Assembly (NCBI GenBank): GCA_023265045.1
Contig: JAHFUQ010000003.1
Location: 30,995-94,994 of the forward strand
Length of the DNA: 64,000 nt
Direction of reading: 5' to 3'
Source: Acidimicrobiia bacterium
GTDB taxonomy: Bacteria > Actinomycetota > Acidimicrobiia > Acidimicrobiales > AC-14
Shown here: positions 37,580 to 46,846 of the stretch, one piece after another
How the letters are laid out: each line of letters opens with the position of its first letter
How positions within the stretch are numbered: position 1 is the stretch's first letter
Made by a program: the position numbers and the translations under genes
The notes under the pieces: model-generated
The model's database searches: none
Seen by the model: only the letters and a program-made list of their open reading frames with translations
Told to the model about the DNA's origin: nothing

Positions 37580-38199
37580 TGGAGAAGGCGCGCGTCGAGG
37601 CGTTCAGCGACGGCGTGCTCGCCATCGCCATCACGCTGCTGATCCTCGAAATCCGCGTCCCCGAGCCCGAGGCGTTGAACGGCGCCGGCCTCGCCCACTA
37701 CCTCGGCCAGCAGTGGTCCAGCTACGCCGCCTACCTGCTGAGCTTCGCCGTCATCGGGATCATGTGGGTCAACCATCACGCCATCTTCCAGGCCGTGGCG
37801 AGAGTCGACCGCACCCTCCTGTTGCTCAACCTCCACCTGCTGCTGTGGATCGCGTTCCTTCCCTTCCCGACGGCGCTGGTCGCCCGCTACTTCCGGCGCG
37901 GCTACGACGCGGGCGTGGCCATGGCCGTCTACAGCGGCGTCATGTTCGTGATCGGCCTGTCGTTCCAGCTGCTCTGGCGGTGGATCACCCGCGACGATCG
38001 GCTGCTGCACGGCCACATCGACCAGCCTCAGGCCCACGCCCGCGCCACTCGCTTCGGCCTCGGGCTGGGCGTCTACCTGGCCGCGGTGGGCCTGTCGTTC
38101 CTCAGCGCGTTCGCGACGCTGATCCTGCACTTCCTCATGGCCGGCTACTACGTCGTGGATCAGCTGGCGGTGGGGGGACAGGCGCCGGACCGCGCTTGA
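37579..38199 (+). CDS. TMEM175 (DUF1211) family potassium channel
   Basis: RVEAFSDGVLAIAITLLILE signature; 6 TM; 206 aa. Confidence 0.8.
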   Translation: MEKARVEAFSDGVLAIAITLLILEIRVPEPEALNGAGLAHYLGQQWSSYAAYLLSFAVIGIMWVNHHAIFQAVARVDRTLLLLNLHLLLWIAFLPFPTALVARYFRRGYDAGVAMAVYSGVMFVIGLSFQLLWRWITRDDRLLHGHIDQPQAHARATRFGLGLGVYLAAVGLSFLSAFATLILHFLMAGYYVVDQLAVGGQAPDRA

Positions 38200-39613
38200 T
38201 CAGCTCGCCCAGGTCGATGTGGCGTTCGTCGACCACGGCGTGGGTCGCCGCCGCGAGTGCGGCCCACGGGCCCGCGTCGGCGTCGATGAGCCCGCTCAGG
38301 CGATCGAGGAGCGGGTTCGGGGCGTCCGCGTGCACCTGGGCGAGGCGCACCCGGTAGTCCTCCTGGTTGTAGACGCGCAGCGACGCGACGTTGAGGTCCT
38401 CGTCGAGCAGGATGGCGGCGCCTCCCTGGAGGGGGGCCGACCGTTCGCTGTCGACCACCCAGCCGCCGGTGTTGTACACCGACACCGGGCCGCGGTACCC
38501 CTTCGGCGCCAGCTCGACCTCGAACGGCTTGTGGGTATGGCCGAAGACGAACGTCAAGTCCTTCGGCACGTCGGGCAGCTCGTACCACTTGTCGCCAATC
38601 TCCTCGAGAAGCTGCGAGCGCAGCGGGCCTTGGAGGTACAGGTGCAAGCCCTGGTCCGCCTTGGCGCTCAGCGGCTTGCTCGGATCGCTGCGCTCGAGGC
38701 GGCTCGCCAGCCGCACCAGGCGGCCCAGCCCGAAGTCCAGCACCTTGCCCCCCAGCCACCGCATCGGACTCGGCCACGTCAGCTTGCCGGCGATGCCCGT
38801 GGCCAGGTTGTGCGCCAACTGCTTCATCGCCGGCTCGCTCTGCAGGGAGGCGTACACCAGGCCGACATCAGCGCCCACCTCACCGGAGCGGCCCAGCGTC
38901 GACCAGAAGAAGTCGATCCAGGCGAAGTTCTCCGCCTCCCACTCCCAGATCTTGTCGGCCGGCGGGCGGCCGGGGAAGACCATGTCCTTGAGCGTGGTCA
39001 TCAGCCGGTACATGCCCTCCACGAAGTGCCCGTGGTGGACGACGACGCTGCGCTCGCCCGCGGTCAGCCGCAGGTTGGGGTAGACGGCCACGACGGTCGC
39101 TTCGCGCAGGTGCTGGTAGCGACGCATGAGCGTGGTGAGCAGCTCGGCCTCGACCGCCTCCTCCTTCGGGGGGACCATTCGTGTCGTGTGCCAGGGGATG
39201 GACAGCTCCTCTTCCGGCCCCGGCGCCTGCTTGCTCACGTACTTGGCGTACTGCCGCTCCCGCGCCGTCTCCCAGAGGTGGTGGTCGTGGTTGCCGGGGA
39301 CGAAGTAGACCGTCTTGTCGAACAGCGGCCCATTGGGCGGGAACGCCTTCTCGAGGAACCGGTCGAACACCATCGCCGCGATGTTGTCGGTCGCCAGCGC
39401 CAGCTCGAGGATGTCGCCGCACAGGATGAGCTGGGGCTGGTCCGGACCCTCGTTCTTCGTGACGAGCTCGGCCAGGCATTCCACCAGGCTTTCCATGACT
39501 GCGCTCGGCTTGTGCGGATCGGCCTCGATCCCCCCCGGCTTCAGGCTGGTGAGGACGCTGTTCTCAGCCCCGAAGTGAAGGTCGGACAGGATGACGTAGC
39601 GGATGTCCGGCAT
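38135..39613 (-). CDS. Calcineurin-like metallophosphoesterase
   Basis: ILSDLHFG, CGDILE, VPGNHDH, VVHHGHF, FGHTHKP motifs. The 3' end overlaps the convergent TMEM175 gene by 65 nt. Confidence 0.8.
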   Translation of the reverse strand: MPDIRYVILSDLHFGAENSVLTSLKPGGIEADPHKPSAVMESLVECLAELVTKNEGPDQPQLILCGDILELALATDNIAAMVFDRFLEKAFPPNGPLFDKTVYFVPGNHDHHLWETARERQYAKYVSKQAPGPEEELSIPWHTTRMVPPKEEAVEAELLTTLMRRYQHLREATVVAVYPNLRLTAGERSVVVHHGHFVEGMYRLMTTLKDMVFPGRPPADKIWEWEAENFAWIDFFWSTLGRSGEVGADVGLVYASLQSEPAMKQLAHNLATGIAGKLTWPSPMRWLGGKVLDFGLGRLVRLASRLERSDPSKPLSAKADQGLHLYLQGPLRSQLLEEIGDKWYELPDVPKDLTFVFGHTHKPFEVELAPKGYRGPVSVYNTGGWVVDSERSAPLQGGAAILLDEDLNVASLRVYNQEDYRVRLAQVHADAPNPLLDRLSGLIDADAGPWAALAAATHAVVDERHIDLGELIKRGPAPVPPPPADPRRSSRP

Positions 39614-39646
39614 GGAGCTCGCCCCTCTCTGTGCCATCGTGGACAC

Positions 39647-39862
39647 ATGTGCCGCAGCATCATCACCCTACGGGGATCGGAACGGGCAAGCGAGGAGGAG
39701 ATGCGAGCCGCCGCCCTCCAGTTCGTGCGCAAGGTCAGCGGCTACCGCCAGCCCTCCAAGGCCAATACCGAGACCTTTCAACGAGCGGTCGACGAGATCA
39801 CCGACTCCGTGCAACGGTTGCTGGACAACCTCGCCCCCGTGCGGGGGCCGGCGGGGCCCTAA
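39647..39862 (+). CDS. DUF2277 family protein
   Basis: MCRSIITLRG..EEEMRAAALQFVRKVSGYRQPSKANTETFQRAVDEI; 71 aa. Confidence 0.8.
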   Translation: MCRSIITLRGSERASEEEMRAAALQFVRKVSGYRQPSKANTETFQRAVDEITDSVQRLLDNLAPVRGPAGP

Positions 39863-42492
39863 CTCGCCTGCTGCGACTGCGGCTCCGGGGGTTGCGGCGG
39901 CTTCTCCGGTGGCGGCGACCACGTCAGCAGCCGCTTCCCGTCGGGCGCGAACGTCACCCCCCGCCGGCGGGTCCCGAACGCCGGGATGGTGCACACCGGG
40001 TCTTGATTGCCGAGGGCCCAGACGGAGACGACACCGTCCTCGGTCGCGGCCGCGATTCGGTCGCCGTACGGGGAGACGGCCACGGCGGCGACGGCGCCGG
40101 GCGAGCGGAACGTCTCCCGCAACCCGCTGGGACCGCCAATCCAAACTCCGGTGTCCCGTGATCCGGACTCGAAGTCGGTCACCCCGACAAGCCGTCCGGA
40201 CCGGTCCCCGGGCAACGGGACAACCGCGACCTCGGCGTGAAGGCCGCCAAACTCGACCGCCTCGCCGCCACCCGTTTTGCGCATCGCGACCCGTCCGTCG
40301 TGCGACGCGTACGCCACCGATGCGCCATCCGGAGAGAAGCCGCCGAAAGCGACGGGTTGGCCGAGCAACGCCAGCTTGCCGGGGCCCTCGCTGACGGCGA
40401 GGGTGACCAGGGCGCCTTCGCCGTTCTCGTCGGTGGTCATCCCGACATCGGCGATGGGCGACAGGGCCAGGATCGGCGCCCGCTGGTAGAAGGTGTTCAG
40501 CATGCGGCCGGTGGCGAGGTCGTGGGTGAGCACCGCGCCGCCCGACACCGAAACGATGCGGGCGCAGTCAGGTGAGACGGCAACCGCCGACACGGCGCCG
40601 TCGTGGCCGTAGATCGTCAACAGCTCGTAGCCGGTGGAGACGTCCCAGACCTTCAGCGTCCGGTCGGCCGAGCCGGTGACGACGCGCGTGCCGTCGGGCG
40701 TCCACGCCGCCGCGGTGACTCGGCCGGTGTGGCCCTCGAACCCCACGAGCCGCCAGCCGGTGGCGATGTCCCACAGCTCGGCGGGCCACACCCGCGTCAT
40801 CGTCAGCCCGGGGTGCCCGAAGAACTGGAGCGTGAAGCCCGCCATCTCGCCGACCGGCGACGACCGCACTTGGCGGAGCACCTCGGCTGCTGCCACCCCA
40901 CCAGGGAGCGCTTTTTCGTAGAACTCCTCGCCGACGCCTGCCATGCGGTCGGCGGCGGCCACCCAGCGGGCGACGATTGCGCCAACCGCCCCGCTCGTGA
41001 GCCGGCTCTGAGCCGAGAAGACCTGGAAGGGCTCGTCGAGGTACGTGAATTGGGGCCGGACCGACGCGGTCGCGCCGCCCGCACCCGCGCCCAGGTGCAG
41101 CAGGTCGGTTTGGCGCATGGCCTTGGAGGGCTCGGGGTTGACCGGGAAGGCATCCCACCCCGAGACGATCGCCTCGGTCACCGGGCCCCCGGCGTACCGC
41201 ATGTCGTCGATCGCCAGGTCGAGGGGCAGCGGCAGGGGCTGGCCAGCCAACCAGTGGGCGACGGCCGCCTGGGCGCCCAGGAATGGCGGGCCGTCTGGGA
41301 ACAGCGGCTCGCGCAGCGGCACGAGCTCCCACGGGAGGGGCGGATAGTCGGCGACGACGAGGAGGCTCGGCGGCCGGCCCGTCCCGCCTGTGAAGGCGGC
41401 CCGTTGCAGGACGTCCCAGAACACGCCGTCCTCCATCGCCCGGCCCAGGGCCTCGCCCACCTTGAACTGCTCGTTCAGCGACGACGCCGAGCGGCTCATG
41501 GCGACGACTTCCTCAAGGTCGAGGGGCAGGCCGACCACGGGGCCTGACTCGAGGTACGGCGACGTGATCGAGAGCTCGAAGCCGCCGTCCGGCGGGCGGA
41601 CGAGGTCGAGGCGGATGTCGATCTGCGGCACGACCAGGCGGTGCGAGGCGCCGAGGCCGTCCTCGACCGCGACGTCGCCGGCCGCGTCGACGACCCGCAC
41701 GTCGCCGTAGCGCAGGGCCACGGTGCGGGGCATGCCGTTGTCGTCCGCACCCGACACGCGCAGCACCAACGCGTCGGAGGCCGGCACGGAGATGCGGTGG
41801 GCACGCGGCCGCGGCGGGTAGGTCAGTTCGACCGCCCCCTCGAACAGGCGAAGGCCAACAGCCGCCTCGGTGATGTCCTCGGGGAGGACGGCGGCGAGGC
41901 GAGCGGCCGTCCCCGGCGGCGGATCGCCGGCCAGGACGCGCCGCCCGCCGATCCGCGCCCCCGCTCCCATCGCCAGCAGCCATGCGGCCTGTGACGACCG
42001 GACATCCTCGGGCAGGCGGGGCACGGCGCGCGCCGCCCACCGGGCCACGTTCGCCCCCTGGTCCGGCGCACCGACCATGGCCTTCACCGCCGACAGCAGC
42101 TCGCGGTCCACTTCCTCCTCGCCGCCAGGCCGGGCCGACAGCCATGCGACCCGCTCCTCGAGCTGCACCGCGGGCGGCGAGCCCCTGTGCATCCGCTCGG
42201 TCAGCGCCCACGCGTCGGCGAGCACCTGCGGGCGGGCCGCAAGCCGCCCGCGCAAGACCTCCGCCACTTCCGCGCCGAGGACGAACCCCAACGGGCCGCG
42301 CGACTCGACCAGGGGGCTCCACCACAGGTCCGCCTCCGCGGAGACGTCGACGTCGGGCAGCAGCGCCAGGCGCGCCGCCCGCAGGAGCGCGGGCTCGATG
42401 TGGACCGCCAACGACACCACTTCGGCGAGCGCGGCGACGCCGGCGCGCTCTCGCGCCACCGCCCCAACCAGGGCGGCGGCCGGCGTCGTCAC
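39859..42492 (-). CDS. Large protein: helical N-region + CHAT-like domain lacking the His/Cys dyad + WD40 repeats
   Basis: GTG 42492 overlaps the upstream stop (GTGA). The 5' 219 codons of the 1096-aa ORF are Arg/Pro-rich, overlap the neighbouring gene, and were rejected. CHAT-like motifs: SLLVVADYPPLPWELVPL, DLLHLGAGAGG, QVFSAQSRLTSG, EEFYEKAL. WD40 motifs: GHTGRVTAAAWTPDGTRVVTGSADRTLKVWDV, GHDGAVSAVAVSPD, EDGVVSVWAL. Confidence 0.75.
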   Translation of the reverse strand: MTTPAAALVGAVARERAGVAALAEVVSLAVHIEPALLRAARLALLPDVDVSAEADLWWSPLVESRGPLGFVLGAEVAEVLRGRLAARPQVLADAWALTERMHRGSPPAVQLEERVAWLSARPGGEEEVDRELLSAVKAMVGAPDQGANVARWAARAVPRLPEDVRSSQAAWLLAMGAGARIGGRRVLAGDPPPGTAARLAAVLPEDITEAAVGLRLFEGAVELTYPPRPRAHRISVPASDALVLRVSGADDNGMPRTVALRYGDVRVVDAAGDVAVEDGLGASHRLVVPQIDIRLDLVRPPDGGFELSITSPYLESGPVVGLPLDLEEVVAMSRSASSLNEQFKVGEALGRAMEDGVFWDVLQRAAFTGGTGRPPSLLVVADYPPLPWELVPLREPLFPDGPPFLGAQAAVAHWLAGQPLPLPLDLAIDDMRYAGGPVTEAIVSGWDAFPVNPEPSKAMRQTDLLHLGAGAGGATASVRPQFTYLDEPFQVFSAQSRLTSGAVGAIVARWVAAADRMAGVGEEFYEKALPGGVAAAEVLRQVRSSPVGEMAGFTLQFFGHPGLTMTRVWPAELWDIATGWRLVGFEGHTGRVTAAAWTPDGTRVVTGSADRTLKVWDVSTGYELLTIYGHDGAVSAVAVSPDCARIVSVSGGAVLTHDLATGRMLNTFYQRAPILALSPIADVGMTTDENGEGALVTLAVSEGPGKLALLGQPVAFGGFSPDGASVAYASHDGRVAMRKTGGGEAVEFGGLHAEVAVVPLPGDRSGRLVGVTDFESGSRDTGVWIGGPSGLRETFRSPGAVAAVAVSPYGDRIAAATEDGVVSVWALGNQDPVCTIPAFGTRRRGVTFAPDGKRLLTWSPPPEKPPQPPEPQSQQAS

Positions 42493-43454
42493 GAGCCCAC
42501 CACCTGGCGGACCACCCGCACGCTCGTGGACCGGTCCCAAGGGATCACCGTGATCGCCCGGCGCAGAGCCGGCGGCACCCGCGCCGCGGGGTAGGGGACG
42601 AACGCCACAAGCGGGCACCCGGCCCTGCGCACGGTCGCCGCGAAGTCCTCCCATTCCGCCGCCGTCGCCCGCTCCGGCGATCCGGTCTCCACCAGGCCGA
42701 GGTCGGAGACGACGACCACTGGGCGGCCGCGGCGCGGCGGCTCGTACCCGATCCACGTCGCCCGCGACTTCGGCCCCGTACCCCGCGAGGGGCAGCCGGC
42801 GAAGCGGAGCACCTCCACCTGGTCGCGGCCGACGAGGGGGACGGCGGCGTCGACGATCTGGCGCTGATCGCCCCGGAACGCCAGCATGCCGTCGCCCATG
42901 TCCAGCAGCACCTGCGCGCCGAACCGGTTCGTGGGCCACGGCAGGCGCGGCAGTTGTTGCAGCGGGCGTCCGGCGGCCAGGTCGTCGACGGCCCGCTCGA
43001 CGTCGAAAGGACCGTCTTCGCTCCGGGTTGCCACCGCCGCGGTCAGGATGCCGCGCGCCCAGCGCGGCACGAAGAGGGGTTCGAGCGCGGGTGGCGGAGC
43101 CACCGGCCCGGCCGGCGCGTCCGCCAGTGCGTCGACTTCGGCCAGCCACGTGGCCGTGCGCCGGGTGGCCGACCGGCTTGCCACCGGCTCGAGCGAACTG
43201 GCGAGCGCCTCGTCGCCGTGCTGCGAGGGGGCCTTGCCACCGAACTGATCGGGCTGCTCGACGTCGCCAGCCGTGGGGTCGCCGGCGTCGGGCGCCGCGG
43301 CTGGAGTCGTCGGCGACACGGAGGGCTCCCCCGCCGGGGCGGGGGGCGCCCGTAAGCCGAGGACCACGGCGATCCGGTCCAGCGTGTCCTGGTCGACGGG
43401 ATGCAAAGCGCCGGCGGCGCGGAGGAAGTCGCCGATCGAGATCTGCGGCAGCAG
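42489..43454 (-). CDS. vWA-like protein with degenerate MIDAS (start uncertain)
   Basis: A high-GC3 frame begins right after the stop at 43472. Candidate starts are CTG 43454, TTG 43406, GTG 43367 and ATT 43508. The core QVLLDMGDGM ... RPVVVVSDLGL resembles vWA beta1/beta4. Confidence 0.55.
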   Translation of the reverse strand: MLPQISIGDFLRAAGALHPVDQDTLDRIAVVLGLRAPPAPAGEPSVSPTTPAAAPDAGDPTAGDVEQPDQFGGKAPSQHGDEALASSLEPVASRSATRRTATWLAEVDALADAPAGPVAPPPALEPLFVPRWARGILTAAVATRSEDGPFDVERAVDDLAAGRPLQQLPRLPWPTNRFGAQVLLDMGDGMLAFRGDQRQIVDAAVPLVGRDQVEVLRFAGCPSRGTGPKSRATWIGYEPPRRGRPVVVVSDLGLVETGSPERATAAEWEDFAATVRRAGCPLVAFVPYPAARVPPALRRAITVIPWDRSTSVRVVRQVVGS

Positions 43455-43471
43455 GCCCCGCTCGGCGAACC

Positions 43472-44461
43472 CTATGTCTGGCTCATCGGCCCGACGCGCT
43501 TGCGCAATGTCGCTCGTATGACCTCCTCCCAGTTCGGGGCAACGGTCGAGAGCTCGAGCTCCGCGGCGGCCCGCACGGCGTCGAGGTACTCGGCCGTGCT
43601 CGGCGCCGGCGACCCGTCTGTCGGCTTGCCCAGCCGCTTCACCTCCTCGGCGATCTTGCGGTGCTGGTCCGCGTCGCCGGACGGGAAGTGGGCCGCGGCG
43701 ATGCTGACCAGCCGGTCCACCAACTTGTCCTCGGGCGGGTCGGGGATGGGCAGGGACACACAACGCCGGAGGAACGCCCGGGGCAGCTCGCGCTCGTCGT
43801 TGGTGGTGATGATGATGAGCGGGACGCGCTCGGGCGCGACGGACACGGCCCGGCCCGACTCGTCGACCTTGAACCCCAGCGACCCCAGCGCCACCAACAG
43901 GCTGTTGGGGACGTCGGGATCGGCCTTGTCGATCTCGTCGATGAGCACGACGGCGCGGTCGCTCTCGCGCGGCGTTCCCGGCTCGAGTGGCGCCCGCCAA
44001 CCCTCGGGGAGCTCGTCGTCCTCGGGGAGCCCGCGCCGCTCGGCCTGGGCCCGGTCGAACGCCCACCACAGCACGCCCGGCTCCACGTAGGCGTCATCGA
44101 CCATGACCGCCTGGTTGGCCTGGGCGTCGCTCAGCCGGCGCACGACGTCGAACCGCCACAGGAGGTCGCGCGCCTGGGTGCGGGCCGTCACCACCGCCTC
44201 GTAGTACCGCCATCCCATCCACATCGCCACGCTGGCCGCCAGCGACGACTTGCCCGAACCCGGGTTGCCGCTCACCAGCAGGGGACGCCCGGTGGCGAGG
44301 GCGATGTTGACGGCGAGGACGATGTCGTCGGTGTACTCGTAGACCTTGCCGTCCCGACGATCGCCGACCGCCCCGCCGGCGGGCGCCGCCTTCGTCGGTC
44401 CCTGCCGCTCGGGCGCCGGTTCCAGCACAGGCTGGGGATTGAAGAACTTCTGGTAGCCCAT
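43472..44461 (-). CDS. MoxR-like (AAA_5-type) AAA+ ATPase
   Basis: ATG 44461 directly abuts the upstream stop (TGAATG). Walker A GNPGSGKSS, Walker B VVLIDEIDKAD, IIITTNDERELPRAFLRRC. Confidence 0.85.
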   Translation of the reverse strand: MGYQKFFNPQPVLEPAPERQGPTKAAPAGGAVGDRRDGKVYEYTDDIVLAVNIALATGRPLLVSGNPGSGKSSLAASVAMWMGWRYYEAVVTARTQARDLLWRFDVVRRLSDAQANQAVMVDDAYVEPGVLWWAFDRAQAERRGLPEDDELPEGWRAPLEPGTPRESDRAVVLIDEIDKADPDVPNSLLVALGSLGFKVDESGRAVSVAPERVPLIIITTNDERELPRAFLRRCVSLPIPDPPEDKLVDRLVSIAAAHFPSGDADQHRKIAEEVKRLGKPTDGSPAPSTAEYLDAVRAAAELELSTVAPNWEEVIRATLRKRVGPMSQT

Positions 44462-45547
44462 TCAGGTCCTCCCTGCACCGCACGCGCGCTTGGCGTCGCG
44501 TAGGGCGCGGTTGATGTCCCGCCAGTACGCGGCTTCGCGCGCCGGGTCCAACTCGGGAACCACGTAGTCGACGTCGGGGAGCGCCAGCGCCGCGAACTCA
44601 GGGCGGGTCATCTCGCCGGTGAGGAACAGGAAGCTGACCTTGGCGTAGCCCTTGGCCCGGATGGCCTGGAGGTCGGCGGCGGTGGGAACCGGCGGCGGGA
44701 ACACGAGCACGACGGGCAGGGCGCTGAGCTCTTCGTCCAGGTCCTCGGGGGGGAACCCGAGCGCCTCTTCCACCGCGCTGGCCACGCGTTGCTCGAGGTC
44801 GGCGAGGTCGGGACCCCAGCCGCCCGGGACCTCCTGCACGCCCCACATCGGGGGCGCCCAGCACGCGGCGCCGGTCACCATTCGCCCCGTCTCGGTGCGC
44901 GCCGACTTGACCCCGAGGCCGCGCCGCGACGGCACGGCGTCGCGAACCAGGGCGACCGCGGCCTGATCGATGCACGCGAACGGCGCGGCCACGGTGACCA
45001 CGGCGCCGGCCCGCTCGCACAGCTGTGAAGACAACGCCGTGACGGCCGACACCAGCGTCTCCAAGTCGGTCTCCAGCAGCCTGCGCGCGAGCACCCAGCG
45101 CATGTCCTCCTCCGTGCCGCTGAGGACGACGCCGAGGATCTCCCCGGCCTCCTTGTAGAGCCCGACGTCAGCGCCCTTCAGCAGCCCGGCAAGCTGACCC
45201 TCGACGTGGTGGCGAGGGGTCTTCTCCACGATCTGGACGGATGCCGCCGGGCTCGCGGCGACGGTGATGTTGAAGATGTCGCCACCGGCGACGTCGCCGA
45301 CGTTCACCGAGCCCGCAATGGCGCCCTTGAAATCCACGACGGCGCGCCCGACGCTGACCGCCTTGGCGCCGACCAGTGCCTCGATGAGCTCGGCTTCGGC
45401 CGCGAGCGCGTCCTTCGCGGCTTCGGGGGTGGTGCCGCCATTGGCGAGGTCGGCGACGATCCGCGCCAGCGTGGGGACGCGCCCCTTGAGGGCCGGCGGG
45501 GCCGCCCGCTCGAGGACGGCCTCGAGGTCCGACGAGGAGACGGTCAC
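44462..45547 (-). CDS. Hypothetical protein sharing a Gly/Val-rich ~34-aa motif with the upstream caspase (adaptor candidate)
   Basis: GTG 45547 overlaps the caspase stop (GTGA). Helical N-terminus of about 60 aa, motif VDFKGAIAGSVNVGDVAGGDIFNITVAASPAASV, then an alpha/beta-like C-terminal domain. No family recognised. Confidence 0.7.
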   Translation of the reverse strand: MTVSSSDLEAVLERAAPPALKGRVPTLARIVADLANGGTTPEAAKDALAAEAELIEALVGAKAVSVGRAVVDFKGAIAGSVNVGDVAGGDIFNITVAASPAASVQIVEKTPRHHVEGQLAGLLKGADVGLYKEAGEILGVVLSGTEEDMRWVLARRLLETDLETLVSAVTALSSQLCERAGAVVTVAAPFACIDQAAVALVRDAVPSRRGLGVKSARTETGRMVTGAACWAPPMWGVQEVPGGWGPDLADLEQRVASAVEEALGFPPEDLDEELSALPVVLVFPPPVPTAADLQAIRAKGYAKVSFLFLTGEMTRPEFAALALPDVDYVVPELDPAREAAYWRDINRALRDAKRACGAGRT

Positions 45548-46788
45548 CCGTGCGTGCGGGCCCGCTGCAACAACACGCCCACGGCGTCGCTCAACGTCTC
45601 CGGCGCGCCCATGGCCAGCAACGCCCGCTGCGCCGAGTCCAACTTTTCGAGCATGCGCCGGTCGTCGCCCGCGTCGCCCGCCTCCTTGGCCTTGCGGAGG
45701 TCGTCGGCGGCGTCCTCCTGGCGGCCTTTCTGCGCGGCTGGCGCGGCGAGGCCGGCGACGTCGGCCCGCGCCCCGGCGATGGCGGCGAGAAGGTCGGCGC
45801 GGCCCGTCACCGCCGCCGCCGCAGCGGGCGTGGTCGTGATCTTCACGATGTCGCGCCCGGCCACGTCGCCCATCGTCACCGAACCGATCGTCGCACCCTC
45901 GAACGACACGACGCTCGTCTTCTCGACAACCGCCACCGGGAACGTCTCCACGGCGCCGTCAGGGAGGCTCTGACGTATGGCCGGCGCGCCGAGGGCGGAC
46001 CGGTCGACGATGCCGTCGCCGAAGAACGAGACCGCGAACGGGCCCACCCCTTCGGACAGGTTGAGGACGGGCTCCTGCGCGACCCGCAGCTCGGCCGCCC
46101 CCGCGATGACCGTCTTGTACAGGTACTCGTATAGCTCGAACAGGCCGACGTAGCCCGGACGGTCCATGCCCTTGCCTCGCAGCCCGTCGATGAGCGCCTG
46201 CCCGAACAGCGTCGTCGGCGCCTGCGGCCGGTAGTACGACGACTGCGTGGCGCGCGCCGCGGTGATGACGGCCCGGCCCTCGCCGCTGGCGAGCACGCGG
46301 GCGCTGAGAGCGGGCGTCGGGGGAGCGCTCTCGGCCCCCAGGGTGGCGTGGATCTCGCCCGACAGGCACGCGTTGATGACGAAGAGGAGCTTGCGGGCCT
46401 TGATGGCCCGCAAGGCGGCCAGCAGCGCCGGCTCGCCCAACCCGGTCCCCTGCAGCGCCAGCTTCCCGGGGCTGAACTGGGTGTCATGGGTCGCCAGCGT
46501 GTACTGCCCGTCGTCGCCCGGGACCCCGTGGCCGGCGAAGAAGATGAGCACGACGTCGTCGGCGGTCGCGCGCGCCGCCAGGTCGGCGAAGGCGTCGTTC
46601 ACCGCCTCGAGCACGGCGCCCTCGTCGTGCAGCAGCCCGACCTGGCCGGCCGGATAGCCGGCGACCTTCTCGTCAATGAGCGCGTCGCGCACTCCTGTCG
46701 CATCCCCCACGGTGATGGGAGCGCTCCACCCCGGGGCCTGGTACTGGCCCACTCCGATCACCAGCGCGTGGCCTTCCGCGAACGCCAT
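45544..46788 (-). CDS. Caspase-like (peptidase C14) protease with C-terminal Gly/Val-rich motif and helical tail
   Basis: HALVIGVGQY start of the domain. Catalytic contexts VVLIFFAGHG (His) and LLFVINACLSG (Cys). Alternative GTG start at 46818. Confidence 0.8.
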   Translation of the reverse strand: MAFAEGHALVIGVGQYQAPGWSAPITVGDATGVRDALIDEKVAGYPAGQVGLLHDEGAVLEAVNDAFADLAARATADDVVLIFFAGHGVPGDDGQYTLATHDTQFSPGKLALQGTGLGEPALLAALRAIKARKLLFVINACLSGEIHATLGAESAPPTPALSARVLASGEGRAVITAARATQSSYYRPQAPTTLFGQALIDGLRGKGMDRPGYVGLFELYEYLYKTVIAGAAELRVAQEPVLNLSEGVGPFAVSFFGDGIVDRSALGAPAIRQSLPDGAVETFPVAVVEKTSVVSFEGATIGSVTMGDVAGRDIVKITTTPAAAAAVTGRADLLAAIAGARADVAGLAAPAAQKGRQEDAADDLRKAKEAGDAGDDRRMLEKLDSAQRALLAMGAPETLSDAVGVLLQRARTHG

Positions 46789-46846
46789 GGCGCGGGAGCC
46801 TACCGACGGACGAACCACGCCGCCCCTGGTCCTCTACCATGCCGCC

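What the first reader, a model, noticed from the sequence alone, without database searches (positions are those of the whole stretch)
40798..41595. CHAT-like domain that appears to have lost both catalytic residues, fused to WD40 repeats (pseudo-protease scaffold?)
The region keeps CHAT hallmarks:
- PLPWELVPL
- a helix resembling the terminal FY..AL helix, EEFYEKALPGGVAAAEVLRQ

Both catalytic positions appear substituted:
- Where CHAT/caspase folds carry H.a.HG, the sequence reads DLLHLGAGAGG.
- Where they carry L(S/N)AC.S, it reads QVFSAQSRLTSG (Cys replaced by Gln).

An inactive protease paralogue encoded in the same operon as an apparently active caspase suggests a regulatory or decoy partner. 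This would be analogous to pseudo-caspase regulators in eukaryotes.
Basis: inference. Interest (0 to 1): 0.6.

Follow-up and report, generated by a model that had tools for sequence, protein, structure and literature searches.

The report
Dead CHAT protease domain fused to WD40
A bacterial immune-type operon encodes a protein whose caspase-like (CHAT) domain has lost its cutting residues but kept its fold, so it most likely serves as a binding or scaffold piece next to a WD40 sensor; dead proteases of this general sort are already known in such systems.

Summary
Residues 290-572 of an 877-aa protein (window 39859-42492, minus strand) form a true CHAT homologue. Pfam's CHAT model misses it. However, phmmer links it (best E 4e-14) to proteins that match PF12770, and an AlphaFold model (pLDDT 83.6) hits only CHAT and separase structures.

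The catalytic His column (His in 75/75 active relatives) holds Gly470. The domain contains no Cys at all.

At least two other proteins share this loss. One has the same three-part layout: N-terminal module, dead CHAT, WD40. The inactive form is therefore old and has been retained.

The N-terminal module marks the third gene of a conserved core: MoxR ATPase, a ~320-aa vWA-like protein, then the module with a variable C-terminal part. I saw this core four more times. All four have an upstream TIR gene rather than a caspase. Their C-terminal parts are PLD, STAND NTPases with repeats, and an active TPR-CHAT.

I read the dead CHAT plus WD40 as the sensor or scaffold head of a MoxR-driven conflict system. 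It is not a cFLIP-like paralogue of the operon's caspase. Inactive caspase-fold domains in MoxR-vWA systems were already described (Kaur et al. 2020), so this is a new variant of a known kind. The scan has not reported this domain on other DNA.

The parts
39859..42492 (-). Whole gene: 877-aa protein made of an N-terminal module, a dyad-less CHAT domain and a WD40 propeller
   Evidence: ORF and translation. The GTG start overlaps the upstream stop. GC3 is 0.91.
41623..42492 (-). N-terminal module (residues 1-290). No family match. It is shared with proteins whose C-terminal parts are PLD, peroxidase, STAND+SBP, NB-ARC+TPR or TPR with an active CHAT.
   Evidence: Pfam gives no hit at E<=10. A full-length orthologue, P0165, is 33% identical over 732 aa.
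40777..41625 (-). Dyad-less CHAT (pseudo-CHAT) domain, residues 290-572. The finding's 40798-41595 corresponds to residues 300-565.
   Evidence: phmmer E 4e-14 to PF12770 proteins. AlphaFold pLDDT 83.6, pTM 0.86. The top 28 Foldseek hits in the PDB (all those at E<=0.001) are CHAT/Csx29 or separase entries, apart from one unrelated entry (7n6g).
41314..41340 (-). PLPWELVPL motif (residues 385-393), the conserved N-terminal CHAT hallmark
   Evidence: P-W-E-L is invariant in 76 sequences.
41074..41106 (-). Degenerate His motif DLLHLGAGAGG (residues 463-473). H466 is kept; the catalytic His column holds G470.
   Evidence: The column is His in 142/150 and 75/75. The model has pLDDT <50 just after it, at domain positions 182-189.
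40999..41031 (-). Remnant of the Cys strand, PFQVFS, followed directly by the helix AQSRL (residues 488-498). The 17-residue loop ACQVGxGxxxLGDYxGx that carries the nucleophile is deleted.
   Evidence: Column counts. The domain has no Cys. Strand at domain positions 200-202 and helix at 206-211 in the model.
40870..40929 (-). EEFYEKALPGGVAAAEVLRQ helix (residues 522-541), the conserved C-terminal CHAT helix
   Evidence: Y525 is invariant; F524, R540 and R543 are nearly invariant.
39913..40776 (-). WD40 beta-propeller (residues about 573-860)
   Evidence: PF00400 E 8e-23 plus many propeller models. It is collinear with P0011 and P0100 across the CHAT-WD40 junction.
42489..43406 (-). vWA-like middle component (about 305 aa; start uncertain). 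It is conserved next to the MoxR gene in every related locus.
   Evidence: 36% identity to the 324-aa and 330-aa proteins of L002 and L003. Conserved GxQxLxDxG and SDLGL motifs. No Pfam, NCBIfam or PDB match.
43472..44461 (-). MoxR-type AAA+ ATPase
   Evidence: AAA_5 E 8e-13. bpMoxR PF20030 scores 28.8 bits against a cut-off of 27. MadB-family ATPase E 8e-17, below its cut-off.
44462..45547 (-). 361-aa protein with no family match. It shares a Gly/Val-rich motif with the caspase's C-terminal part.
   Evidence: The motif is visible in the translations. No Pfam or NCBIfam hit.
45544..46818 (-). Caspase-like protease with an intact His/Cys dyad, the likely executioner
   Evidence: NCBIfam caspase_w_EACC1 E 3e-29, below its cut-off. 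Peptidase_C14 E 6e-7. PADLOC caspase E 4e-16. Motifs FFAGHG and INACLSG.

Best explanation
What is shown:
- Residues 290-572 are a CHAT-family caspase-fold domain that keeps the core fold.
- It has lost the catalytic His (now Gly470), the whole Cys-bearing loop, and a segment between the two catalytic strands.
- It sits between a ~290-aa N-terminal module and a WD40 propeller.
- The N-terminal module defines the third gene of a conserved core: MoxR ATPase, a ~320-aa vWA-like protein, then the module with a variable C-terminal part.

What is inferred:
- The domain does not cleave peptide bonds.
- Together with the WD40 propeller it forms the ligand- or partner-binding head of the third component.
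- When a signal is bound, the MoxR ATPase and its vWA-like partner remodel the complex.
- This releases or activates the separately encoded caspase. That caspase is probably tethered through the motif it shares with the neighbouring 361-aa protein.
For: Homology and fold:
- phmmer gave 276 hits; the best non-self hit has E 4e-14.
- Eight of ten sampled hits match PF12770.
- The profile of the active subfamily matches the solved CHAT protein 8rot_B at E 2e-13, with the HG and AC motifs aligned.
- The AlphaFold model has pLDDT 83.6.
- Its best structural matches are Csx29/TPR-CHAT (8d9f_A, E 6e-8, TM 0.60) and separases.

Loss of the dyad:
- Column counts are 142/150 and 75/75 for His, and 140/150 and 75/75 for Cys. 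The query has Gly and a gap.
- The domain has no Cys.

Retention:
- The query, P0011 and P0100 form one clade (SH-like support 96), and all three lack the dyad.
- P0165, from the same cluster as P0100, is collinear over module, dead CHAT and WD40: 33% identity over 732 aa, E 9e-91.
- GC3 is 0.91 in frame.

System context:
- bpMoxR is above Pfam's cut-off.
- The same gene order recurs in L002, L003, L165 and L166.
- The vWA-like proteins are homologous.
- The C-terminal parts vary and include an active TPR-CHAT and NB-ARC+TPR.

Published background:
- Inactive peptidase domains in MoxR-vWA systems have been read as peptide binders or decoys (PMC7159879).
- A WD40 sensor signalling through MoxR-vWA has been tested experimentally in oral Actinobacteria (bioRxiv 10.64898/2026.09.08.750141).
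Against: - No binding partner, ligand or activity was tested.
- The vWA identity of the middle protein rests only on two conserved Asp-containing motifs.
- The gene context of the orthologues P0165 and P0011 could not be fetched. It is therefore unknown whether a caspase always accompanies the dead CHAT.
- In sister systems the same position carries real enzymes (PLD, peroxidase, active CHAT). The position may be an effector slot, in which case the dead CHAT would be a disabled effector rather than a sensor part.
Confidence: 0.6

Rival explanations
1. cFLIP-like or dominant-negative regulator. The dead CHAT pairs directly with the operon's caspase, or competes for its substrates, and keeps it off until the system fires.
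For: - A dyad-less caspase-fold domain and an intact caspase lie in one co-directional, translationally coupled cluster.
- Kaur et al. proposed dominant-negative roles for inactive peptidase domains in MoxR-vWA systems.
Against: - The two domains belong to different families (CHAT versus the C14 / EACC1-associated type), so a paralogue-type heterodimer is not expected.
- Related systems with the same N-module pair with TIR effectors, and none of them has a dead CHAT.
- The substrate-side loops, including the loop after the Cys, are deleted. This argues against substrate mimicry at a preserved cleft.
Confidence: 0.2
2. Integrated decoy. The dead CHAT mimics an active host CHAT protease. It is bound by an invader's protease inhibitor or protease-targeting factor, and this binding is the trigger that the MoxR machine senses.
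For: - Active CHAT proteins of the same subfamily exist as separate defence-like genes (350 genomic relatives).
- An active TPR-CHAT occupies the same slot in a sister system.
- The decoy idea was raised for inactive enzyme domains in these systems.
Against: - The own genome has no other copy of this CHAT subfamily to protect or mimic, although the genome is only 85% complete.
- The active-site loops that an inhibitor would be expected to bind are deleted.
- There is no direct evidence.
Confidence: 0.1
3. The domain is still a hydrolase that uses other residues, for example a Ser with the retained His466.
For: - H466 is kept.
- By an ungapped register anchored on the invariant Asn, the relatives P0100 and P0011 carry Ser where Cys would be.
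- Bacterial pseudo-orthocaspases also carry Ser at the Cys site (PMC6426788).
Against: - In the query the whole nucleophile loop is absent.
- H466 is Arg in P0011, so no alternative pair is conserved within the clade.
- The region after the His strand is predicted disordered, with pLDDT <50.
Confidence: 0.05
4. A functionless relic: a decaying domain kept only as a linker between the N-module and the WD40 propeller.
For: - Two deletions and loss of both catalytic residues.
- A long branch in the tree (1.9 changes per column).
Against: - Fold-determining motifs are kept (PWEL, FLGAQ, W414, FY, GHP).
- The fold prediction is confident.
- The dyad-less domain persists in orthologues at 30-35% identity with the same layout.
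Confidence: 0.05

Closest known systems
CHAT-family proteases (Pfam PF12770): Csx29/TPR-CHAT of type III-E Craspase, separase, and PDB 8rot_B 'CHAT domain-containing protein'
   Same: - Same fold: Foldseek E 6e-8 to 8d9f_A and 2.6e-7 to separase 7nj1_A.
- Clear sequence homology through the active subfamily.
- Fusion to repeat domains (TPR, WD40) is also seen in its relatives (P0166, P0011 and P0100).
   Different: - No catalytic His.
- The Cys loop is deleted.
- The domain is about 58 residues shorter.
- It scores below any threshold of the Pfam model itself.
Inactive caspase-like and trypsin-like domains on the vWA component of VMAP-type MoxR-vWA ternary conflict systems (Kaur, Burroughs, Iyer, Aravind 2020, eLife; PMC7159879)
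   Same: - A dead peptidase domain inside a MoxR-ATPase-centred, multi-gene conflict-type system that also has an active peptidase or TIR gene.
- The proposed roles are the same: peptide binding, dominant negative, decoy.
   Different: - Here the dead domain is a CHAT, not the caspase type described there.
- It sits on the third component, not on the vWA protein.
- That third component carries an N-terminal module that matches none of the Pfam models, VMAP and bpX included.
- Only the MoxR matches, via bpMoxR.
Bacterial pseudo-orthocaspases (Klemencic et al. 2019, PMC6426788)
   Same: Prokaryotic caspase-fold proteins that have replaced the His-Cys dyad and are conserved as such.
   Different: - They belong to the C14 family and carry Tyr/Ser substitutions.
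- They have no loop deletions, no WD40 fusion and no MoxR context.
Eukaryotic pseudo-caspases such as cFLIP, and the pseudo-protease half of separase (from general knowledge)
   Same: A non-catalytic caspase-fold module used for regulation or binding.
   Different: - cFLIP works by heterodimerising with its close paralogue caspase-8.
- Here the neighbouring caspase is not a close paralogue, and no interaction was tested.
Esr threat-sensing pathway of oral Actinobacteria (bioRxiv 10.64898/2026.09.08.750141)
   Same: [quoted passage not shown]
   Different: - The Esr sensor is secreted, with Ig-like repeats, and signals through a kinase and FHA relay.
- It has no caspase-fold domain.

Membership tests
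CHAT domain (Pfam PF12770; caspase-hemoglobinase fold) | Match to the family's own profile above its gathering score | tested here: not met
   hmmscan of residues 290-572 against Pfam-A at E<=10 returned nothing.
CHAT domain (Pfam PF12770; caspase-hemoglobinase fold) | Significant sequence homology to bona fide members | tested here: met
   phmmer gave 276 hits, the best at 4e-14. Eight of ten sampled hits match PF12770, six of them at 1e-15 to 7e-21. The subfamily profile hits PDB CHAT 8rot_B at 2e-13.
CHAT domain (Pfam PF12770; caspase-hemoglobinase fold) | CHAT/separase-type fold | tested here: met
   The model has pLDDT 83.6 and pTM 0.86. Of the 28 Foldseek hits at E<=1e-3, 27 are Csx29/TPR-CHAT or separase entries and one (7n6g) is unrelated.
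CHAT domain (Pfam PF12770; caspase-hemoglobinase fold) | Catalytic His-Cys dyad (needed for an active protease, not for homology) | tested here: not met
   G470 occupies the His column. The Cys column falls in a 17-residue gap. The domain has no Cys.
MoxR-vWA ternary conflict systems (Kaur et al. 2020) | MoxR-clade AAA+ ATPase | tested here: met
   AAA_5 E 8e-13. bpMoxR PF20030 scores 28.8 bits against a cut-off of 27, covering model positions 17-87 of 205 only. RefSeq names the counterparts 'MoxR family ATPase'.
MoxR-vWA ternary conflict systems (Kaur et al. 2020) | vWA co-chaperone with Asp residues at the ends of strands 1 and 4 | tested here: inconclusive
   No Pfam, NCBIfam or PDB match. 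Two conserved Asp motifs (LxDxG and SDLGL) in three homologues fit the description. No fold model was made.
MoxR-vWA ternary conflict systems (Kaur et al. 2020) | A conserved third component of one of the four described types (VMAP, iSTAND, FtsH, or propeller on the vWA protein) | tested here: not met
   A conserved third component exists (five loci), but its N-module has no Pfam match. The propeller is on the third component and not on the vWA-like protein.
Pseudo-caspase regulators of the cFLIP type | Close paralogy to, and heterodimer formation with, the caspase that it regulates | not testable with these tools
   The two proteins match different family models, and the nearest relatives of the dead CHAT are CHAT proteins. 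Complex prediction and binding tests were not available.

The most novel reading that the evidence does not exclude
The dead CHAT-WD40 head is an integrated decoy or bait. It mimics an active CHAT protease so that an invader's anti-protease factor binds it. The MoxR/vWA-like machine reads that binding and unleashes the tethered caspase. This would be a bacterial counterpart of plant NLR integrated decoys, built on a previously undescribed MoxR system type defined by the N-terminal module.
Probability: 0.1. Interest if true: 0.7.

Novelty: new variant of a known kind. Interest (0 to 1): 0.4.

Why it matters
The case shows an immune-type protease fold being turned into a non-catalytic part. The catalytic residues went first: the relatives P0100 and P0011 still keep the loops. 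The active-site loops were then deleted in this lineage, while the core fold and the WD40 fusion were kept.

The case also exposes a recurring core: MoxR, a vWA-like protein and an N-module protein, with swappable C-terminal ends (PLD, peroxidase, STAND+repeats, active CHAT, dead CHAT+WD40). This core does not match the four published MoxR-vWA subsystem types by their Pfam models.

If the dead CHAT proves to be the sensing or docking surface, it would give a simple handle on how MoxR-type chaperones gate caspase or TIR effectors. The general principle is already in the literature, however, so the gain is incremental.

Tried and rejected
- **Pfam, NCBIfam, PADLOC and PDB sequence searches.** Run on the domain alone, they gave nothing or only noise. 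That could have been read as 'no CHAT similarity'. I rejected this reading once the exhaustive phmmer search linked the domain to PF12770 proteins.
- **Word-indexed homologue searches.** All three found only 2-5 proteins each.
- **First AlphaFold job.** It used a 7-sequence alignment and failed (pLDDT 37.7). I did not use that model.
- **The single metagenome scan.** It was captured by a WD40 pattern. None of its 80 loci holds this CHAT subfamily, so I did not obtain the gene context of the orthologues P0011, P0100 and P0165.
- **Searches in related genomes.** 200 genomes of the same order had no copy of the domain. Among 400 genomes of the class, one had an N-module protein and one had a CHAT-like match.
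- **'Cys replaced by Gln'.** It fits an ungapped register, but I rejected it in favour of deletion of the Cys loop, because A494 to A502 align column by column with the helix after the loop.
- **The downstream metallophosphoesterase (38135-39646).** I considered it as part of the system. It is not conserved in the sister loci whose downstream flank could be read (L003, L165, L166), and its match to an anti-phage phosphoesterase model is far below the cut-off (22 bits against 420).
Full report
**Where it is.** The window is about 72% G+C. It comes from an incomplete genome assembly: 4.3 Mb, 323 contigs, 85% complete, 5.9% contamination. The finding lies inside one long minus-strand ORF. The listed ORF (39859-43149) starts too early. 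The real gene most likely begins at the GTG at 42492, which overlaps the stop of the upstream gene as GTGA, and gives 877 residues. The finding's coordinates, 40798-41595, correspond to residues 300-565. G+C at third codon positions is 0.91 in this frame across the region, so it is coding.

**The neighbourhood.** Six co-directional genes sit on the minus strand:
- A caspase-like protein with an intact dyad (45544-46818). NCBIfam caspase_w_EACC1 gives E 3e-29, below its cut-off. Peptidase_C14 gives E 6e-7.
- A 361-aa protein with no family match (44462-45547).
- A MoxR-type AAA+ ATPase (43472-44461). AAA_5 gives E 8e-13. bpMoxR scores 28.8 bits against a cut-off of 27.
- A protein of about 305 aa with no family match (42489 to about 43406).
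- The 877-aa protein.
- After a 212-base gap, a metallophosphoesterase (38135-39646).

**Is the region a CHAT domain?** Pfam's own CHAT model does not see it; hmmscan at E<=10 returned nothing. A PDB sequence search gave only noise. An exhaustive phmmer search of residues 290-572 against 1.84 billion representative proteins gave 276 hits at E<=1e-3. Twenty of them were at E<=1e-10, and the best non-self hit was at 4e-14. I scanned ten of these hits against Pfam. Eight match PF12770 CHAT, six of them at E between 1e-15 and 7e-21. The two that do not match are P0047, which also lacks the dyad, and a fragment.

A first AlphaFold run on a 7-sequence alignment failed (pLDDT 37.7). There were 350 relatives, and 80 loci were kept. 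I cut out 75 domains and aligned them behind the query. The second model is confident: mean pLDDT 83.6 and pTM 0.86. The only stretch below 50 is domain positions 182-189, directly after the degenerate His motif.

Against the PDB, the model has 28 matches at E<=1e-3. Twenty-seven are Csx29/TPR-CHAT of type III-E Craspase (8d9f_A, E 6e-8, TM 0.60) or separases (7nj1_A, E 2.6e-7); one (7n6g) is unrelated. The profile of the active subfamily also hits the solved CHAT protein 8rot_B at E 2e-13. In that match HfavHG lines up with dlAtHG, and fLnACqvG with vLAACEGG. The domain is therefore a real CHAT homologue.

**Are the catalytic residues gone?** Yes.
- In a MAFFT alignment of 150 sequences, the second His of HFAxHG is His in 142 of 150. 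The query has G470. The first His, H466, is retained.
- The Cys of NACQVG is Cys in 140 of 150. The query has a gap there.
- In the independent set of 75 genome-derived members, both columns are 75 of 75.
- The domain has no cysteine at all.

That fits an ungapped reading, PFVFLNAC against PFQVFSAQ. However, A494-Q-S-R-L-T-S-G-A lines up column by column with the helix A-E-A-F-L-x-A-G-A that follows the Cys loop. The model also begins a helix at Q495. The better description is that the 17-residue loop ACQVGxGxxxLGDYxGx is deleted. A second deletion of roughly 25-30 residues removes the segment between the His and Cys strands. The domain has 283 residues against a family median of 341.

**Is the loss old and retained?** A FastTree of 145 domains places the query with P0011 and P0100 (SH-like support 96). 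All three lack the dyad. The query's branch is long, so this placement is provisional.
- P0011 is CHAT-like plus WD40 and is collinear with the query across the junction (E 2e-35).
- P0100 is a 5'-truncated call. Its cluster mate P0165 (959 aa) aligns with the query over the N-module, dead CHAT and WD40: 33% identity over 732 residues, E 9e-91.
- P0100 and P0011 still have the two loops. They carry Pro or Ser at the His column. By the register anchored on the invariant Asn, they carry Ser at the Cys position. MAFFT put other non-Cys residues there.

Catalysis was therefore lost first, and the loops were deleted later in this lineage. A second, separate pair also lacks the dyad: P0014 from Planobispora and P0047 from Streptosporangium.

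**What system is it part of?** Residues 1-290 have no family match, but they recur at the N-terminus of proteins with quite different C-terminal parts:
- P0004 has a PLD domain.
- P0005 has a STAND NTPase plus SBP_bac_5.
- P0006 has an animal-type peroxidase domain.

A tblastn search of plasmids found two more, on linear Streptomyces plasmids:
- NZ_CP108601: module + TPR + CHAT with an intact dyad (HFSGHG, LSACFSG; PF12770 E 1.5e-36).
- NZ_CP107864: module + NB-ARC + TPR.

In all four loci where flanks could be read, the gene order is TIR protein, MoxR ATPase, a 318-345-aa protein with no family match, then the module protein. The middle proteins are homologous to the one in the window (36% identity). 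They share LxDxG and SDLGL motifs, which fit the two Asp residues that define vWA domains, but nothing confirms the fold.

The active CHAT subfamily from which the dead domain derives is not linked to this machinery. None of its 80 loci has a MoxR, vWA-like or module gene within 6 kb. The system is rare among relatives:
- No copy of the domain was found in 200 genomes of the same order.
- Among 400 genomes of the class, one had a module protein and one had a CHAT-like match.

PADLOC does not know the system.

**How it most likely works.** The following are shown:
- a dyad-less CHAT fold;
- its fusion to a WD40 propeller and to the module;
- the conserved three-gene core;
- an active caspase in the same cluster.

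The following is inferred. The domain is non-catalytic. With the propeller it forms the binding head of the third component. MoxR and its partner remodel the complex on a signal and release or activate the caspase. The caspase is probably held through the Gly/Val-rich motif it shares with the 361-aa protein.

This follows the model of Kaur et al. 2020 for MoxR-vWA ternary systems. [quoted passage not shown] A recent preprint shows a WD40 sensor acting through MoxR and vWA in Actinobacteria.

The system here differs from the four published subsystem types. The variable end is on the third component, the vWA-like protein carries no extra domains, and the module matches no VMAP, iSTAND or bpX model.

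'Inactive' is right. 'Paralogue of the operon's caspase' is not, because the two belong to different caspase-fold families. In addition, sister systems pair the same module with TIR proteins rather than caspases. A regulatory or decoy role is not excluded. It needs the orthologues' gene contexts and interaction tests, neither of which I could obtain.

**Novelty.** Dead caspase-fold domains are known in bacteria, both in MoxR-vWA systems (PMC7159879) and as pseudo-orthocaspases (PMC6426788). What is new here:
- The dead domain is a CHAT.
- Its active site has eroded in stages within one small clade.
- It is fused to WD40.
- It sits on a module-defined third component of a MoxR core that does not fit the published subsystem types.

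I rate it a new variant of a known kind, of moderate interest.

Noticed in passing
L002, L003, L165 (NZ_CP108601 107023-114005), L166 (NZ_CP107864 392829-401415), and window 39859-46818: A recurring gene set: an effector (TIR or caspase), a MoxR ATPase, a 305-345-aa vWA-like protein with no family match, and a protein with a shared ~290-aa N-terminal module and swappable C-terminal ends (PLD, STAND+SBP_bac_5, NB-ARC+TPR, active TPR-CHAT, dead CHAT+WD40). A peroxidase-ended module protein (P0006) was also seen, but its contig was too short to show neighbours. The set fits none of the four published MoxR-vWA subsystem types by their Pfam models. Two copies lie on linear Streptomyces plasmids near transposases.
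   Followed up: partly
L004-L083 (genome contigs): The active CHAT subfamily (motifs EPYVPWEL, HFAVHG, PFVFLNACQVG, AYQFFGHP) has 350 relatives among species-representative genomes. They are mostly Chloroflexota, Actinomycetota and Acidobacteriota genome bins. Several members have an N-terminal part with a hydrophobic stretch and a Pro-rich linker. All members seen are unnamed or called 'hypothetical'.
   Followed up: partly
L056 2-9043: An active member of that CHAT subfamily lies downstream of a separate WD40 protein and a subtilase (Peptidase_S8), and upstream of a DUF7379 protein. This may resemble the state before the CHAT-WD40 fusion, or it may be a peptidase-cascade locus.
   Followed up: partly
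window 43406-43520: The vWA-like gene has no ATG, GTG or TTG between the MoxR stop (43472) and the TTG at 43406, although the frame looks coding from the stop onward. The start is uncertain.
   Followed up: partly
window 38135-39646: A 503-aa calcineurin-like metallophosphoesterase lies 212 bases downstream of the dead-CHAT gene on the same strand. It has a very weak match to an anti-phage phosphoesterase model (DS9_1, 22 bits against a cut-off of 420). It is not conserved next to the sister systems whose downstream flank could be read.
   Followed up: partly
P0014 (Planobispora longispora BFE78025.1) and P0047 (Streptosporangium WP_440104793.1): A second, apparently independent pair of dyad-less CHAT-like proteins in Streptosporangiales. 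They also have a shortened Cys region. Their nearest neighbour in the tree is an LRR-CHAT protein, P0071, with an intact dyad.
   Followed up: partly
window 45236-45909: The caspase's C-terminal part and the 361-aa protein share a motif: V.F.GA.IGSV..GDVAG.DI..I. It is visible in the translations. It is the subject of another note of this scan and was not studied here.
   Followed up: no
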